Shown here in pieces: positions 27,900-31,986 of a stretch of 64,000 nucleotides of DNA; position 1 is the first letter of the stretch, and the number at the start of each line of letters is the position of its first letter. Both the position numbers and the translations under genes were made by a program. The notes under the pieces were generated by a model. It was not told where the DNA came from and ran no database searches. It was given only the letters and a program-made list of their open reading frames with translations. The stretch is from a virus, in the IMG/VR virus record IMGVR_UViG_3300035034_000924, positions 21,399-85,398 of that record; one strand, written 5' to 3'.

Positions 27900-30800
27900 A
27901 TGGCCAAGCTGCCTAAATTTAGAGAAGAGTTCCCTTGTCTGGCATGTCCGCTAGGTGAGCAAGGCTGCGCCAAGATCAAGGCCAGCGGTTCCCGAAGAGC
28001 CAAGATCCTAGTCGTTACTCACGGGCCTCACGACGGAAACGCTGCCCACTACAAAGAGCATATGACCAGAGACGCTCTAGCGGTGTTCAAGAGAGCCATG
28101 CACGAGAACGGTTTTACCGATTCAGACTTCGTGTTCGTATCTTCGGTACGGTGCTACTACGACAGAGACCTCAGGCCTACGAAAGAAAAGACGCACATAG
28201 CTGAGCAGTGCCGAGAATACTTGCTACGCACCATTGACCAGATGAAGCCAGACATAATTGTACCGTTAGGTGTCGAGGCGGCTAGGTCGGTTTACGGCAA
28301 AGCAAAAAAGATAACCAAGATACGCGGGGCAGTGGAATGGGATGCCGACTACAACGCGCACATATTCCCTATGATTGACCCGCAGATGGTATCCAACTAT
28401 CCACAGAACTGGGGGACATTCAAAGCAGACGCCAGAAGCTTGCGTAGGCTGATGGACAACGGTTTCAACGAAGCAGATGTTGCTAGGCAGGGTCTGGGCG
28501 AATACGAAATAGTCGATGACCTACAATTCCTGATTGATAAAAACCCAGAAGTATTGGTGCTCGATACGGAGACCGAGGGCAAACGTTGGTCAGAGCGAGA
28601 TAAACGGTTATTGACCATTCAGCTAACTGACGAGGCGGGCAAGGGGTATATGGTCGTGTGGGACCACCCAGAAGCACCCGCCAATAGGCAGACAAAGCGT
28701 AGGCTGAGAAGACAATTCAAAGAGCTACTCGAAAGGGAAGAACTCACCGTAGTCGGGCAGAACCTGAAGTACGACGCGCTTTGGATGTATACCAGAGTCG
28801 GGGTCCGGTTCCGAATAGGTGATGACACGCTCATGCTGGCAGCAATCCTAGATGAGAATAACCTGAACAAAGACCTATCCTCACTGACAAAAATGTTTGT
28901 GCCGGAGATGGCGGGCTACGATGATCTGTTCAACAGGACGTACGACAAGTCTAGGATGCAAGACGTACCGATAGCCGAGATACTGAACTATGGTTGCGGG
29001 GACTCGGATGCTTGCAAACGTTTGCACGAATATTTCTGGGGACAGATAGAGACAGACCCGCAACTGGTTACGCACTATGACGAAGTATCTTTGCCGGGAC
29101 TGAACGCGTTCGTCTCTACTGAGATGCGGGGGCTCAAGGTTAACTTAGCGGGGCTGGATGATCTTAGGACTACCTTGGCAGAGTATGTCGATGAGCTGGA
29201 AGAGAGCCTGCTCACACAAATACCTAGAAGAATAAAGCGTGACCACCTAGAAGCGGGCAAAGAGATAAAACTATCAAGGCCTGACCTACTAAGAGACATA
29301 CTGTTCCATCATCCAGCAGGGTTTAACCTAAGACCCAGAGTGTTCACCAAGACCACGGCTAAGCTAGCGCCAGAACTGCAAGTACCTTCCACCAGTAGTA
29401 AAGACCACCTACCGTTTTTCTTTGACGATTGCCCGTTCACAGAAGAGCTGGCCGAGTACCAAAAACTTAGCAGGTTGCTGGGTACAAACATTGAGAAGTT
29501 TCAAGAGAACTACATGATCGGGGATATGGTTTACCCGTCCTATCAACTGCACGTCACGGTAACGGGGCGAACATCGTGCCTCAGAGAAGATCAGTTGGTG
29601 GATACACGCCACGGTAAGAAGCGTGCAGACAACATTGAAGTAGGGGACGAAGTATTCACACACATGGGTAGGTTCCGCCCCGTTACAAAGCTGTTCCGAA
29701 AACCAGTTACGCCTATGGTGGATGTAAGGTTTAGTAACGGGGAAGTCTTGCATGTCACACTAGATCATATTGTCTTGCTTAACTCTGGTGAGTTTGTTAC
29801 CGTTAGGTCAATCATCCAGCAAGGGATAGACTATGCCCAGTGTCAGCAAGAAGCATATGCAGGACGAAGAGCTAGTTTTGCAGGTAGCAGAAACATACCG
29901 CACATCTATGATGACTGTGCAGGAAGTAGCGGACAGGTATCATGTGAACCACGTAACAGCGCGAGCCATGATTCGGAAGCACATATCAGACGAGGACTTC
30001 AAGAAGTTCGCGCACTACAGATATCACGACAGCAAGCTGGGGAAAAAGAACCATCAGTTTGGCAATCAGCGGGCATCAGATTGCGAGGATGGCAGGGGCT
30101 ACCTTACGAGACTAGTAGAGGGCAAGAGATACTTTGTGCATCGGATAGTATTCGCGGGGGGTATGGGCATGAAGCCTCACGAATTGCCAGAGTCGATGAT
30201 TGTACATCACATAGACGGGAACCCGAAGAACAACAGTCTCGACAACCTTGCACTGACAACGCGGAGGGGGTATTCGGGTATACACGACCGATACCTGTTT
30301 CCTTCCGAAGAGTTTCAATTGAGAGCATTGACTATTCGGGAAGCTATCGAGTTTATGACTTCGAGGTAGAGGAAGATCACTCGTATCTGGCGGGTGGCGT
30401 ATTCTCCCATAACTCACAAGACCCTAATGGCCAGAACTTCCCCAAACGTGGCAGGTTCGCTAAAGCGTACCGAAAGCTCTTTGTACCGAACGAAGGTTAC
30501 TTCATGCTGGAGGCTGACTTGTCTCAGGCAGAGCTGCGTATATCCGCAGACATGTCGAACGACCAAGAGATGATACGCATCTACAATAGTCCGGGCGGGG
30601 ACATCCACAAAACAACTGCCCTGATCGTAACAGGGCTATCGGCAGAGCAGTTTGCGCAACTTGATAGGACAGAACAATCACTGGCTAGGTTTAAAGCCAA
30701 GGCCGTGAACTTCGGGTTCATCTACGGTATGGGCTGGAGAAAGTTCATCACGTACGCGAAGACCCAATACGGCGTAGAGTTTACTGACAGAGAAGCGCAG

Positions 30801-31412
30801 CGGATACGGGACCAGTTCTTCCAGAGATACCCTGCACTAGTACGATGGCACAAAGCTATGCGTGAGTATGCAAGGACGCATGGTTATGTGCGGTCTTACA
30901 GCGGGCGAGTACGCCACCTACCTATGATCTACTCGCGGGAAGAGTACATCCGAAACGAAGCTGAGAGACAGGCAATCAATAGCCCCGTTCAGGAGTTCGC
31001 CTCGTCTATCGGGGTCATGGCGCTGAGTAACATTGACCAAGATGTAAACCCTGATTACCTAGCAATTACTGGTTTCGTGCACGATGCTATCTACGCCCTT
31101 GTCCCGTACCAATACGCGGAGTGGGGAGCGAAGACGCTCAAGCATTATATGGAGACTGTAGATATCGAAGGTATATTTAACCGCAGACTCAAAGTACCTA
31201 TTCTGGCGGACGTATCTATCGGTTTGAATGGTGGTGAGCAATTCGAGATGGCGGGCCTAGATCTAGATACAGAATACAACTGGGAGTCTCAGCTTGAATA
31301 TGAACCGGAAGATGGCTTCCCGTTCGAGATGACAGAGCAGCTGACCCCACCAGACGATGGCTTGATAGAGCTGCCTAGGCACTTAGTAAGACCATCGCTA
31401 CTAGCCCCGTGA
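27900..31412 (+). CDS. polA: Family A DNA polymerase with N-terminal UDG-family-4-like domain, 3'-5' exonuclease and an intein
   Basis: Exo motifs LDTET, GQNLKYD, YGCGD; pol motifs TVTGRTS/SQDPNGQN (split by intein), EADLSQAELR, AKAVNFGFIYG, VHDAI. Confidence 0.93.
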   Translation: MAKLPKFREEFPCLACPLGEQGCAKIKASGSRRAKILVVTHGPHDGNAAHYKEHMTRDALAVFKRAMHENGFTDSDFVFVSSVRCYYDRDLRPTKEKTHIAEQCREYLLRTIDQMKPDIIVPLGVEAARSVYGKAKKITKIRGAVEWDADYNAHIFPMIDPQMVSNYPQNWGTFKADARSLRRLMDNGFNEADVARQGLGEYEIVDDLQFLIDKNPEVLVLDTETEGKRWSERDKRLLTIQLTDEAGKGYMVVWDHPEAPANRQTKRRLRRQFKELLEREELTVVGQNLKYDALWMYTRVGVRFRIGDDTLMLAAILDENNLNKDLSSLTKMFVPEMAGYDDLFNRTYDKSRMQDVPIAEILNYGCGDSDACKRLHEYFWGQIETDPQLVTHYDEVSLPGLNAFVSTEMRGLKVNLAGLDDLRTTLAEYVDELEESLLTQIPRRIKRDHLEAGKEIKLSRPDLLRDILFHHPAGFNLRPRVFTKTTAKLAPELQVPSTSSKDHLPFFFDDCPFTEELAEYQKLSRLLGTNIEKFQENYMIGDMVYPSYQLHVTVTGRTSCLREDQLVDTRHGKKRADNIEVGDEVFTHMGRFRPVTKLFRKPVTPMVDVRFSNGEVLHVTLDHIVLLNSGEFVTVRSIIQQGIDYAQCQQEAYAGRRASFAGSRNIPHIYDDCAGSSGQVSCEPRNSASHDSEAHIRRGLQEVRALQISRQQAGEKEPSVWQSAGIRLRGWQGLPYETSRGQEILCASDSIRGGYGHEASRIARVDDCTSHRREPEEQQSRQPCTDNAEGVFGYTRPIPVSFRRVSIESIDYSGSYRVYDFEVEEDHSYLAGGVFSHNSQDPNGQNFPKRGRFAKAYRKLFVPNEGYFMLEADLSQAELRISADMSNDQEMIRIYNSPGGDIHKTTALIVTGLSAEQFAQLDRTEQSLARFKAKAVNFGFIYGMGWRKFITYAKTQYGVEFTDREAQRIRDQFFQRYPALVRWHKAMREYARTHGYVRSYSGRVRHLPMIYSREEYIRNEAERQAINSPVQEFASSIGVMALSNIDQDVNPDYLAITGFVHDAIYALVPYQYAEWGAKTLKHYMETVDIEGIFNRRLKVPILADVSIGLNGGEQFEMAGLDLDTEYNWESQLEYEPEDGFPFEMTEQLTPPDDGLIELPRHLVRPSLLAP
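29013..29026. repeat. Dispersed palindrome, perfect copy
   Basis: TGCAAACGTTTGCA, in polymerase (CKRLH). Confidence 0.9.
29577..30413 (+). mobile_element. Intein (279 aa) in DNA polymerase
   Basis: Starts CLREDQLV, block B VTLDH, ends VYDFEVEEDHSYLAGGVFSHN followed by Ser; removal restores TGRTS-SQDPNGQN. Confidence 0.92.
29833..30369 (+). CDS. HNH homing endonuclease nested in the +1 frame of the polymerase intein
   Basis: GY...VHRIV...VHHIDGNPKNNSLDNL...H HNH motif, N-terminal HTH-like segment; AAGGGA RBS-like sequence 6 nt before ATG. Confidence 0.85.
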   Translation: MPSVSKKHMQDEELVLQVAETYRTSMMTVQEVADRYHVNHVTARAMIRKHISDEDFKKFAHYRYHDSKLGKKNHQFGNQRASDCEDGRGYLTRLVEGKRYFVHRIVFAGGMGMKPHELPESMIVHHIDGNPKNNSLDNLALTTRRGYSGIHDRYLFPSEEFQLRALTIREAIEFMTSR

Positions 31413-31429
31413 GTATTTTTTAATAAGAG

Positions 31430-31458
31430 TAGACAATAAAAGCGTATAATAGTATTAT
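31430..31458 (+). promoter_or_regulatory. Sigma70-like promoter
   Basis: TAGACA-N17-TATTAT in an AT-rich intergenic gap. Confidence 0.5.
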
Positions 31459-31491
31459 AGCTGCACCAATAAACAATCGCAGGAAAGAAAC

Positions 31492-31986
31492 ATGGCTGAG
31501 ACAAGAAAACGACAGGTTGGCAGACGGGCAAGCAGATCTAGTGATCGAGAGGCCGTTACACCAAAAGGCAGTAAGCCTAGCTCTAGTTCCGCCAAGCGGG
31601 TAAAAGAACAACGGCTGGAAGAACTCGCCCGAGGCATCGACACTAGACTAGTGGAGATTGAGCTTCGTAACAAAGAGATGGCTGGCATGCACACCGAAGC
31701 CGCCGAACTGATGGCCGAACTTAAGCTTGAGAAGTTTGATGTGCCTAGGGTAGGCGAACACCTCTTCGTTAAGAAAAAAGCTTCAGACAAATCTACCATA
31801 GATCCACGGGCTTACTACGGGAAGGTAGGTAAGGACGATTTCTATGCGTCCGTTTCGGTCACTAAGAAAAATGCCAAAGAGCACCTACCTGAAAAAGTCA
31901 TCGACCAGATCAGCACCAAGGTAGTCGGTGAATGGACAGGACCCCATTATTCCTTCAAGGCGGCAGGCTCTAAAAAAGGTAAGTAG
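31492..31986 (+). CDS. Hypothetical basic protein
   Basis: 164 aa, AGGA RBS, Arg/Ser-rich N-terminal tail. Confidence 0.65.
   Translation: MAETRKRQVGRRASRSSDREAVTPKGSKPSSSSAKRVKEQRLEELARGIDTRLVEIELRNKEMAGMHTEAAELMAELKLEKFDVPRVGEHLFVKKKASDKSTIDPRAYYGKVGKDDFYASVSVTKKNAKEHLPEKVIDQISTKVVGEWTGPHYSFKAAGSKKGK

What the first reader, a model, noticed from the sequence alone, without database searches (positions are those of the whole stretch)
29577..30413. Dual-coding intein: HNH homing endonuclease encoded in the +1 frame inside the DNA polymerase intein
Seen: the intein has normal splicing ends (Cys1...His-Asn/Ser). Its central region of about 180 codons in the polymerase frame has no recognisable endonuclease and reads like off-frame sequence (AQCQQEAYAGRRASF...), yet contains no stop. 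The +1 frame (29833-30369) encodes a convincing HNH protein (VHRIV...HHIDGNPKNNSLDNL) with its own RBS-like AAGGGA. The 3' end of the HNH ORF overlaps codons of the intein C-terminal splicing block. Established: intein endonucleases are normally in-frame LAGLIDADG or HNH domains. I recall alternative-frame endonucleases being reported for a few actinobacteriophage inteins, so this is rare rather than unprecedented. Inference: a free-standing HNH gene invaded a mini-intein, and both frames are kept open, one for polymerase splicing and one for homing.
Basis: partly seen in the sequence, partly recalled or inferred. Interest (0 to 1): 0.85.

Follow-up and report, generated by a model that had tools for sequence, protein, structure and literature searches.

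The report
Polymerase intein with out-of-frame HNH gene
A self-splicing protein insert (intein) in this lake phage's DNA polymerase gene carries a complete HNH homing-nuclease gene written one base out of step through its middle; the layout is real and under selection, but the general kind was described in 2025-2026 preprints.

Summary
The family-A polymerase ORF (27900-31412) holds a 279-codon class-1 intein (29577-30413). A 178-codon ORF in the +1 frame (29833-30369) matches Pfam HNH_3 above its cut-off.

It is not an assembly error. Contigs of two other lake-water studies are identical, without indels, over the parts they cover. All 15 full-length relatives from separate assemblies (27-59% intein identity) keep both frames open.

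Selection switches frame inside the overlap: diversity peaks at the HNH wobble position there, and at the intein wobble position in the splicing parts. Recoding the HNH ORF with synonymous codons gives about 11 stops in the intein frame.

The nuclease is homologous (hhalign E 8e-41) to HNH genes that split polA 3-8 codons downstream in eight cultured phages.

Intein presence is scattered on the extein tree. Shorter inteins keep HNH remnants.

Out-of-frame intein endonucleases are already published for other nuclease families, so this is a new variant of a known kind. This scan has noted similar polymerase inteins on other DNA. In this copy a near-invariant His is Tyr, so activity is uncertain.

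The parts
27900..31412 (+). Host gene: UDG + 3'-5' exonuclease + family-A DNA polymerase fusion, 1170 aa including the intein
   Evidence: ORF. DNA_pol_A E 5.3e-61, UDG 2.7e-13, DNA_pol_A_exo1 4.9e-11.
29577..30413 (+). Class-1 intein of 279 codons, inserted between TGRTS and SQDPNG of the polymerase
   Evidence: C1, T61, H64, D261, H278 and N279 are invariant in the intein alignments, and Ser follows the intein; the intein profile hits solved mini-inteins (gp41-1 E 4e-8; RecA, DnaE, DnaB, DnaX); 15 of 18 family members hit Intein_splicing.
29577..29831 (+). N-terminal splicing region (intein codons 1-85), single-coding
   Evidence: diversity peaks at intein codon position 3 (0.61 in clade A); the matches to solved inteins cover profile positions 5-103.
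29821..29826 (+). Shine-Dalgarno-like AAGGGA, 6 nt upstream of the HNH start codon
   Evidence: sequence; by my reading of the printed upstream sequences, 11 of 15 relatives have a purine-rich GGAG/GGGA-type motif before the start.
29833..30369 (+). HNH homing-endonuclease ORF in the +1 frame (178 aa, ATG...TAG)
   Evidence: HNH_3 E 6.7e-11; 15 of 15 homologous ORFs hit HNH_3; the start is at the homologous position in 15 of 15 (13 ATG, 2 GTG); purifying selection acts in this frame.
29908..29982 (+). Possible helix-turn-helix DNA-binding segment of the HNH protein (residues 26-50)
   Evidence: HTH_17 E 0.0046, below the cut-off, so weak; this N-terminal part aligns with the intron-type HNH proteins.
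30130..30267 (+). HNH_3 catalytic core (residues 100-145, VHRIV...HHIDGNPKNNSLDNL)
   Evidence: stretch 100-145. H125, H126, D128, N133, N134, N138 and L139 are invariant in 15 sequences.
30271..30273 (+). Codon TAT (Tyr147 of the HNH protein) where the 14 relatives in the alignment have His
   Evidence: alignment; G146 and H147 are near-invariant. (sequence); a contig of run X2 covering this place shows no other letter.
29835..30296 (+). Intein-frame read-through linker (about codons 87-240): open, poorly conserved, rich in G/S/R/Q/E/P/A/D
   Evidence: window versus 14 relatives, identity 0.25 in the intein frame against 0.49 in the HNH frame. Polar and small residues make up 0.69 and hydrophobic residues 0.18; no Pfam or PDB match in this part.
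30297..30413 (+). C-terminal splicing block (codons 241-279). Bases 30297-30369 are doubly constrained because they also encode the HNH tail
   Evidence: diversity in codons 241-263 is low at all three positions (0.35/0.15/0.22). After the HNH stop it returns to a position-3 peak (0.54). TAG lies 44 nt before the intein end in 11 of 15.

Best explanation
This is a mobile class-1 intein at the TGRxS|S site of a phage family-A DNA polymerase. Its homing endonuclease is not an in-frame domain. It is a separate 178-aa protein (an HTH-like N-terminal part plus an HNH_3 core) encoded in the +1 frame across the intein's endonuclease slot.

Shown:
- Both frames are open, here and in all 15 full-length relatives.
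- The centre evolves under purifying selection in the HNH frame. The polymerase frame is kept only stop-free and reads as a polar linker.
- The HNH tail and the C-terminal splicing block share 73 bases, which are constrained in both frames.
- Intein presence is scattered among closely related polymerases.
- Shortened inteins are deletion derivatives.

Inferred:
- The polymerase precursor is translated through the linker and the intein splices out.
- The HNH protein is made by internal initiation at ATG 29833 on the polymerase mRNA.
- It nicks or cuts intein-free polA alleles near the TGRxSS..PN codons in co-infecting phages, so that repair copies the intein in (homing).
- The nuclease lineage is shared with intron-type HNH genes at the same polA site. 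It was therefore probably acquired from such an element that already recognised this target.
For: - Anatomy.
- Conservation: the +1 ORF (178-190 aa from a conserved start) is open in 15 of 15 full-length inteins, with intein identity to the window of 27-59%. All 15 hit HNH_3.
- Frame switch of selection: in clade A, diversity at intein codon positions 1/2/3 is 0.37/0.28/0.61 in the N-terminal splicing part. It is 0.52/0.30/0.23 in the overlap core, where position 1 is the HNH wobble. After the HNH stop it is 0.10/0.08/0.54. Clade B and the whole set show the same pattern.
- Amino-acid identity in the centre: 0.49 in the HNH frame against 0.25 in the intein frame.
- The open intein frame is selected: 0 of 3000 synonymous recodings of the window's HNH ORF were stop-free. 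Over the 15 loci the stop-free share ranged from 0 to 0.026.
- Splicing residues are invariant. The intein profile matches solved mini-inteins only in its N and C parts.
- Independent assemblies are identical.
- Mobility: on a FastTree extein tree of 120 polymerases, the full-length intein (34 rows) needs at least 19 changes forced by starred branches. The window's two nearest exteins (P0042, P0049) lack it, in a clade with support 99. P0037 (full) and P0047 (short) have identical exteins.
- Degeneration series: L006, L008 and L029 keep HNH remnants.
- Target logic: all 8 cultured-phage relatives examined have the HNH gene between two polA halves, which break just after TGRLS(S/G)SxP(NL). hhalign of the two HNH groups gives probability 100%, E 8.2e-41, over 141 columns.
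- I-PfoP3I, an HNH enzyme from a polA intron, nicks the intron-less allele 4 nt from the insertion site. The same paper names phiL7 gp45 as similar. phiL7 P45 is one of my hits (PMC3428280, passages read).
Against: - There is no direct evidence that the HNH ORF is translated. No RNA or proteome data were available.
- No dedicated promoter was found: 1 promoter-like site against 1.3 expected by chance.
- By my reading, 4 of the 15 relatives have no obvious Shine-Dalgarno motif.
- The window's copy has Tyr where 14 relatives have His147. From memory of the H-N-H spacing, this is probably the third motif residue, so this copy may be weakened or inactive.
- The window's intein scores below Pfam's gathering cut-off for Intein_splicing (29 against 35.8 bits).
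- Neither splicing with a roughly 155-residue unstructured insert nor cleavage of the intein-free allele was tested.
- The tree is FastTree only. The protein set was gathered with a query that contained the intein, which enriches intein-bearing rows.
- Rfam found no group I intron in the 8 cultured-phage loci. Their 'intron' status rests on annotations (2 of 8 records join the CDS) and on PMC3428280.
Confidence: 0.85

Rival explanations
1. Assembly or sequencing artefact: two compensating frameshift errors displaced an in-frame HNH domain.
For: None was found.
Against: - Contigs from two other studies are identical, with 0 gaps, across both ORF ends.
- 15 of 15 independent, divergent assemblies have the same frame relation, and the start and stop are conserved.
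- The codon-position signature switches exactly at the ORF borders.
- No long in-frame version appears among the best 150 profile hits.
Confidence: 0.01
2. The family is a true dual-coding intein, but the copy in this phage is no longer an active homing element. The HNH gene would then be an intact-looking, catalytically impaired passenger at the start of the degeneration phase of the homing cycle.
For: - Tyr replaces the near-invariant His147; 14 relatives have His.
- Deletion derivatives show that degeneration is common in this family: 13 'short' against 34 'full' among 120 polymerases.
Against: - The ORF is full length, with a conserved start, an SD-like motif and all other invariant residues.
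- Some HNH-family homing enzymes tolerate changes at the last motif position. This is recalled (I-HmuI is an H-N-N variant) and was not tested here.
- The window's closest extein relatives lack the intein, which fits a recent gain.
Confidence: 0.2
3. The HNH module is made as part of the intein polypeptide by programmed ribosomal frameshifting, not by separate initiation.
For: Both ORFs are on the same strand and the same mRNA. No separate promoter was found.
Against: - The +1 frame has a stop two codons before ATG 29833.
- It ends at a conserved TAG inside the splicing block, so a shifted ribosome would terminate and could never make the C-terminal splicing block or the C-extein.
- A start codon sits at the homologous position in 15 of 15.
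- Returning to frame would need a second shift, and no signal for one was seen.
Confidence: 0.03
4. The nested HNH protein is kept for a benefit to the phage other than homing, for example cutting competitor phage genomes at polA (marker exclusion), with the intein only protecting the carrier's own allele.
For: - Conservation is long term across deep divergence.
- Close relatives of the nuclease always sit at this polA site.
- Intron-endonuclease competition between phages is a known phenomenon (recalled, Goodrich-Blair and Shub 1996; seen only as a reference).
Against: - This is mechanistically the same enzyme act as homing, and nothing here separates the two.
- The scattered presence, near-identical exteins with and without the element, and frequent decay fit a selfish element better than a beneficial gene.
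Confidence: 0.1

Closest known systems
Non-canonical actinobacteriophage inteins with the homing endonuclease in another reading frame or on the opposite strand (Gosselin, Arsenault, Gogarten, bioRxiv 10.1101/2025.01.02.630785; abstract, sections 8 and 15 and passages read)
   Same: - An intein with intact splicing blocks.
- The endonuclease slot is read through in the host frame without a recognisable fold.
- A separate HEN ORF sits in the slot.
- Distribution is scattered.
- The proposed origin is invasion by a free-standing HEN.
   Different: - Their same-strand out-of-frame case is an endonuclease VII-like gene in 'frame 3'.
- Their HNH cases are in frame.
- Their hosts are actinophages and their polymerase host gene is DNA polymerase III alpha.
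- Here the nuclease is HNH_3, in the +1 frame, in a family-A polymerase of uncultured lake phages, and its tail overlaps the C-terminal splicing block.
Cyanobacterial dnaX intein with an out-of-frame LAGLIDADG endonuclease (Phillips, DeSimone, Gogarten, bioRxiv 10.64898/2026.09.14.751524; abstract and section 17 read; Gorbalenya 1998 as cited there)
   Same: - Overlapping ORFs.
- Purifying selection in the HEN frame and relaxed constraint in the intein frame.
- Full, mini and empty alleles coexist.
- A secondary-invasion origin is proposed.
   Different: The HEN is LAGLIDADG, it lies in a +2 ORF, and the gene is cellular (dnaX). No link is drawn there to intron-borne HENs at the same site.
ShiLan-type insertion: an out-of-frame HNH hidden inside a phage N6/N4 DNA methylase (Arsenault et al. 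2025, PMC11855218; abstract read)
   Same: An out-of-frame HNH gene whose host frame stays open. I saw two such methylase cases among relatives (L092, L095).
   Different: There is no intein and no splicing domain there, so the read-through stays in the mature protein. Here the read-through is removed by protein splicing.
HNH homing endonucleases in phage polA group I introns: I-PfoP3I (Pf-WMP3) and phiL7 gp45 (PMC3428280, passages read), plus the split-polA HNH genes of Dor1, PS3, PhAPEC7, BF25/12, MJW, ABW311 and LLY
   Same: - Homologous protein: hhalign E 8.2e-41 over the HTH-like part and the HNH core.
- Same host gene and practically the same site, within 3-8 codons after TGRxS.
   Different: - Their vehicle is an RNA-level intron or a split gene, with the HEG in its own non-overlapping space.
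- Here the vehicle is a protein-level intein and the HEG is overprinted on it.
- The C-terminal tail (profile columns 160-184) is not shared.
Fractured genes: split inteins with a free-standing endonuclease gene between the halves (Dassa et al. 2009, PMC2677866; abstract from the search listing only)
   Same: A separately translated HEN sits between the intein splicing halves.
   Different: There the host gene is broken in two and spliced in trans. Here the host frame is continuous.

Membership tests
Class-1 intein (Hint fold) | Nucleophile Cys/Ser at intein position 1 | tested here: met
   Cys at 29577. C1 is invariant in 14 and in 18 aligned inteins.
Class-1 intein (Hint fold) | Block B Thr-x-x-His | tested here: met
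   T61 and H64 (TLDH) are invariant. The block naming is recalled.
Class-1 intein (Hint fold) | C-terminal His-Asn followed by Ser/Thr/Cys in the C-extein | tested here: met
   ...SHN | S. H278 and N279 are invariant. In one search, +1 is Ser in all 40 polymerases listed.
Class-1 intein (Hint fold) | Significant match to intein or Hint profiles | tested here: inconclusive
   The window scores Intein_splicing E 1e-6, but 29 bits is below the 35.8 cut-off. 15 of 18 family members match at E<=0.001. The family profile hits solved mini-inteins, best E 4.1e-8.
Class-1 intein (Hint fold) | Protein splicing demonstrated | not testable with these tools
   It needs expression and a gel or mass spectrometry assay.
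HNH_3 homing endonuclease | Pfam HNH_3 match above the gathering score | tested here: met
   42.1 bits against the 24.8 cut-off. 15 of 15 relatives match.
HNH_3 homing endonuclease | Catalytic His, Asn and His/Asn of the beta-beta-alpha-metal motif | tested here: inconclusive
   H125, H126, N134 and N138 are present and invariant. Position 147 is Tyr in the window and His in the 14 relatives. The assignment of residue roles is recalled, not computed.
HNH_3 homing endonuclease | Cuts or nicks the element-free allele at or near the insertion site | not testable with these tools
   This is only inferred, from homologues at the same polA site and from I-PfoP3I biochemistry (PMC3428280).
[quoted passage not shown] | A HEN ORF lies between the splicing blocks in a frame other than the host's, while the host frame stays open | tested here: met
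   and the recoding test.
[quoted passage not shown] | Purifying selection acts on the HEN frame, not on the overlapped intein frame | tested here: met
   Codon-position diversity switches frame, and identity is 0.49 against 0.25. No formal overlapping-gene dN/dS model was run.
[quoted passage not shown] | Sporadic presence among related exteins, as a signature of mobility | tested here: met
   At least 19 forced changes for 34 carriers on a 120-row FastTree. The window's nearest exteins lack it.
Group I intron with a nested HEG (considered) | Intron RNA structure, with the host reading frame interrupted | tested here: not met
   No Rfam match at E<=1 in 28500-31500. The host frame is open and carries intein splicing residues.

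The most novel reading that the evidence does not exclude
One HNH homing-endonuclease lineage specialised on the TGRLSS..PN site of phage family-A polymerases has ridden two different self-splicing vehicles. One is an RNA intron or split gene. The other is a protein intein onto which it was overprinted in the +1 frame, down to sharing 73 bases with the C-terminal splicing block.

On this reading the dual-coded form is an old, widespread and evolutionarily stable design. It repeatedly seeds mini-inteins by deletion of the endonuclease gene, and it is not a rare transient accident.
Probability: 0.45. Interest if true: 0.65.

Novelty: new variant of a known kind. Interest (0 to 1): 0.5.

Why it matters
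Three reasons:

- It adds a fourth nuclease family (HNH_3) and a new host gene (phage family-A polymerase) to the recently recognised class of inteins whose homing enzyme is a separate, overlapping gene. It also shows the layout holding through deep divergence (27% intein identity).
- It ties an intein's endonuclease directly to intron-borne endonucleases at the same target codons. This is concrete support for the 'splicing element first, endonuclease invades later' view of how mobile inteins arise.
- For annotation, gene callers that forbid same-strand nested genes will miss such nucleases and label the intein a mini-intein or 'endonuclease-less'.

Tried and rejected
- **Close relatives in cultured phages:** blastn of the region found only a 165-base extein match.
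- **Single-protein locus search with the HNH ORF:** it gave two marginal hits (L001, L002), which I did not use.
- **In-frame HNH inteins at the same site** (P0048, P0050, P0058, P0066, P0067): only their splicing ends resemble this intein, and their HNH domains are a different lineage (best E 2.4e-6 over 35 residues, for P0048 alone). I therefore rejected them as ancestors or descendants.
- **PDB sequence search with the HNH profile:** no hit at E<=0.01.
- **Group I intron:** no Rfam hit in the window region at E<=1. None reached the gathering score in 8 cultured-phage and 3 metagenomic split-polA loci.
- **Promoter and terminator scan of 29300-30600:** nothing beyond chance.
- **Sequencing runs:** no RNA holder was listed. 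The laid contigs show no joined, intein-free form. X3 leaves 5 of 30 bins uncovered and X2's contigs are short.
I did not pursue it.
- **Loci not analysed:** L013-L020 and L033-L039 matched only the C-terminal block or short pieces.
- **Rows left out of the 15-locus statistics:** L010 (identical to L009), L007, L026 and L027 (same 203-aa form as L006), and the short forms L006, L008 and L029.
- **Supplementary files** of the cited papers were closed. They may list out-of-frame HNH inteins that I could not see.
- **Literature searches behind the claim of 'no published out-of-frame HNH inside an intein':** (full-text word searches). The claim is only as strong as those searches.
Full report
**What is there.** The window is part of an 85,398-base IMG/VR virus record. 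Near-identical sequence occurs in lake-water metagenomes of three studies.

ORF 27900..31412 (+) encodes a 1170-aa fusion of a uracil-DNA-glycosylase-like domain, a 3'-5' exonuclease and a family-A polymerase. A DnaB-type helicase-like ORF lies upstream and a primase-like ORF downstream (by eye).

Between TGRTS and SQDPNG the protein carries 279 extra residues. They begin with Cys and end with His-Asn, and Ser follows. In this frame only the two ends look like an intein (Intein_splicing E 1e-6, Hint_2 E 9e-4). The middle matches no family.

The +1 frame has an ATG...TAG ORF at 29833..30369 (178 aa). It matches Pfam HNH_3 above the gathering score (E 6.7e-11) and 13 PHROG families annotated as HNH endonuclease. 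AAGGGA lies 6 nt before the ATG. The ORF stops 44 nt before the intein end, inside the C-terminal splicing block.

**Not chance, not error.**
- The third frame of the intein has 27 stops. The +1 frame has 4 stops in the first 84 codons and none in the next 179.
- I redrew the HNH ORF's codons synonymously, using the polymerase's own codon usage. The intein frame then acquired on average 10.9 stops, and none of 3000 draws was stop-free. Over all 15 loci the stop-free share was 0 to 0.026.
- Contigs of two further studies are letter-identical, with no gaps, across 29388-30132 and 30099-30783. These stretches contain both intein junctions and both ends of the HNH ORF.

**Relatives.**
- A search with polymerase residues 480-920 returned 437 proteins.
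- Among the 120 listed, an intein-profile search found a full-length homologous intein at the same site in 34 and a shortened one in 13. Five have another, only distantly similar intein, and 68 have none.
I therefore fetched DNA with an alignment of 14 inteins (A1) from viral contigs (17 loci) and from metagenome contigs (19 loci).
- Fourteen distinct loci carry a full-length intein (267-279 aa, 27-59% identical to the window's).
- In all 14, as in the window, the +1 frame holds an open ORF of 178-190 codons. It begins at a homologous M/V-[PS]-x-x-x-K start (13 ATG and 2 GTG in the 15). It ends within the C-terminal block, at TAG 44 nt before the intein end in 11 of 15.
- All 15 translated ORFs hit HNH_3.
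- By my reading of the printed upstream sequences, 11 of 15 have a GGAG/GGGA-type motif before the start.

**Which frame is under selection.** In the single-coding splicing parts, nucleotide diversity peaks at intein codon position 3 (0.61 and 0.54 in clade A). In the overlap core it peaks at intein position 1, which is the HNH wobble position (0.52). It is lowest at intein position 3, which is HNH position 2 (0.23). Where the HNH tail overlaps the C-terminal block, all three positions are low. Clade B and the pooled set behave the same way.

Amino-acid identity of the centre between the window and the 14 relatives is 0.49 in the HNH frame and 0.25 in the intein frame. The intein-frame centre is 69% G/S/R/Q/E/P/A/D and 18% hydrophobic. 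The intein family profile matches solved mini-inteins (gp41-1, RecA, DnaE, DnaB, DnaX) only through profile positions 5-103 and 234-278.

So the centre is an HNH gene, and the polymerase frame is merely kept open across it. Splicing residues C1, T61, H64, D261, H278 and N279 are invariant.

**Breadth.**
- The HNH profile (A2) found 19,239 representatives at E<=0.001, 496 at E<=1e-10 and 66 at E<=1e-30 in a library of 1.84 billion cluster representatives.
- Nearly all of the best 150 are proteins of under 300 aa. None is a long polymerase with an in-frame copy.
- A second subgroup with a different tail (A4) was traced in viral contigs. Of 80 loci kept, 11 (L040-L048, L051, L052) are again embedded one base out of step in long ORFs. 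Two of these, L046 and L048, lie on the contigs of L004 and L008.
- The seven of these ORFs that I scanned are family-A polymerases with intein matches.
- Four (L040, L041, L043, L052) have clear boundaries of the form TGR(L/T/A)x | C...HN | (S/C), followed by xxPN in the first three, with frame offset +1.

**Link to intron-borne nucleases.** tblastn of the window's HNH protein against 50,697 phage records hit 27 records. I examined eight distinct phages: Dor1, PS3, PhAPEC7, phiL7, BF25/12, MJW, ABW311 and LLY. In all eight the gene lies between two halves of a family-A polymerase gene. The upstream half breaks just after TG(R)LS(S/G)SxP(NL), 3-8 codons downstream of the intein site.

Two records annotate a joined CDS, and one notes 'located in intron'. 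The I-PfoP3I paper describes polA group I introns in Pf-WMP3 and phiL7. It shows that I-PfoP3I nicks the intron-less allele 4 nt from the insertion site (PMC3428280, passages). Rfam did not detect introns in these loci.

Profile-profile comparison of the intein-embedded and the split-polA nucleases gives probability 100% and E 8.2e-41 over 141 columns. The match covers the HTH-like N-terminal part and the HNH core, but not the tail that overlaps the intein. Three metagenomic free-standing relatives (L049, L050, L054) also follow TGRxSSxxPR in a broken polA.

**Mobility and decay.**
- On a FastTree extein tree (120 rows, inteins removed, 873 columns) the full-length intein needs at least 19 changes forced by well-supported branches.
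- The window's nearest exteins, P0042 (69% identity) and P0049, lack the intein. The three form a clade with support 99.
- Several near-identical exteins differ in intein state: P0037 is full and P0047 short, with identical rows. P0006 and P0021 are full, while P0083 and P0121 have none.
- Shortened inteins keep HNH remnants in the +1 frame. L006 (203 aa) matches at E 3e-24, with internal deletion and stops. L008 (220 aa) has a truncated ORF. L029 (147 aa) matches at E 1.7e-7 to the N-terminus of L025's nuclease.
- This is the pattern expected of a homing cycle of gain, endonuclease decay and loss. It also shows that these mini-inteins are descendants, not ancestors.

**Mechanism proposed.** The polymerase precursor is translated straight through the polar linker, and the intein then excises itself. 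Ribosomes that initiate at ATG 29833 make a 20-kDa protein with an HTH-like part and an HNH core. In mixed infections this protein nicks or cuts intein-free polA near the TGRxSS..PN codons, and recombinational repair copies the intein in.

The frame anatomy, selection, distribution and homology are shown. Translation, splicing, cleavage and target are inferred.

One caution for this particular copy: residue 147 is Tyr where the 14 relatives have His. By recalled H-N-H spacing this is probably the last motif residue.

**Comparison with the literature.**
- Out-of-frame or antisense homing endonucleases in inteins are in print. Actinophage inteins carry a frame-3 endonuclease VII-like gene, or antisense LAGLIDADG or VSR-like genes (bioRxiv 10.1101/2025.01.02.630785).
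- The cyanobacterial dnaX intein carries a +2-frame LAGLIDADG gene (bioRxiv 10.64898/2026.09.14.751524).
- An out-of-frame HNH is published only inside a methylase without an intein (PMC11855218, abstract).
- My three full-text searches found no report of an out-of-frame HNH inside an intein, nor of one in a phage family-A polymerase. Supplements were closed.
- This scan's own notes list 48 findings, in at least 41 genomes, that hold the searched words. The eight shown all describe such polymerase inteins.

**Verdict.** The finding is real, well supported and mechanistically coherent. It is a new variant of a recently described kind, and it adds a link between intein-borne and intron-borne nucleases at one target site.

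Noticed in passing
L092:1617-3875 and L095:1252-2913 (IMG/VR contigs): Two N6/N4 DNA methylase ORFs (Pfam N6_N4_Mtase E 8e-33 and 4e-45) each have an HNH_3-related ORF of 158-164 open codons embedded in another frame of the same strand. They show no intein match. They resemble the published 'ShiLan' insertion.
   Followed up: partly
L108:756-5150 (the L109 locus shows the same coordinates and ORF): A 1465-codon ORF with PolyA_pol and Topoisom_I domains carries an HNH_3-related open frame of 225 codons in a different frame of the same strand. I did not check whether an intein is present.
   Followed up: no
L044:1093-4758: One polymerase ORF has an Intein_splicing match with two stretches (best 424-659), within which the out-of-frame HNH ORF lies, and further downstream an in-frame HNH_3 domain (residues 807-850). 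This suggests two differently built elements in one gene.
   Followed up: no
P0048, P0050, P0058, P0066, P0067 (polymerases): Related polymerases carry a different intein lineage. For P0048 I showed the same TGRxx|C site and an in-frame HNH_3 domain. So this codon position is a hot spot for at least three kinds of element: intron-type, an intein with an in-frame HNH, and an intein with an out-of-frame HNH.
   Followed up: partly
   Followed up: partly
P0014 (1994 aa), P0015 (1516 aa), P0023 (1578 aa), P0045 (1577 aa): Some relatives of the polymerase are 350-800 residues longer than the window's. P0045 shows a second weak N-terminal intein-profile match at residues 1126-1152, so additional inteins at other sites are likely.
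   Followed up: no
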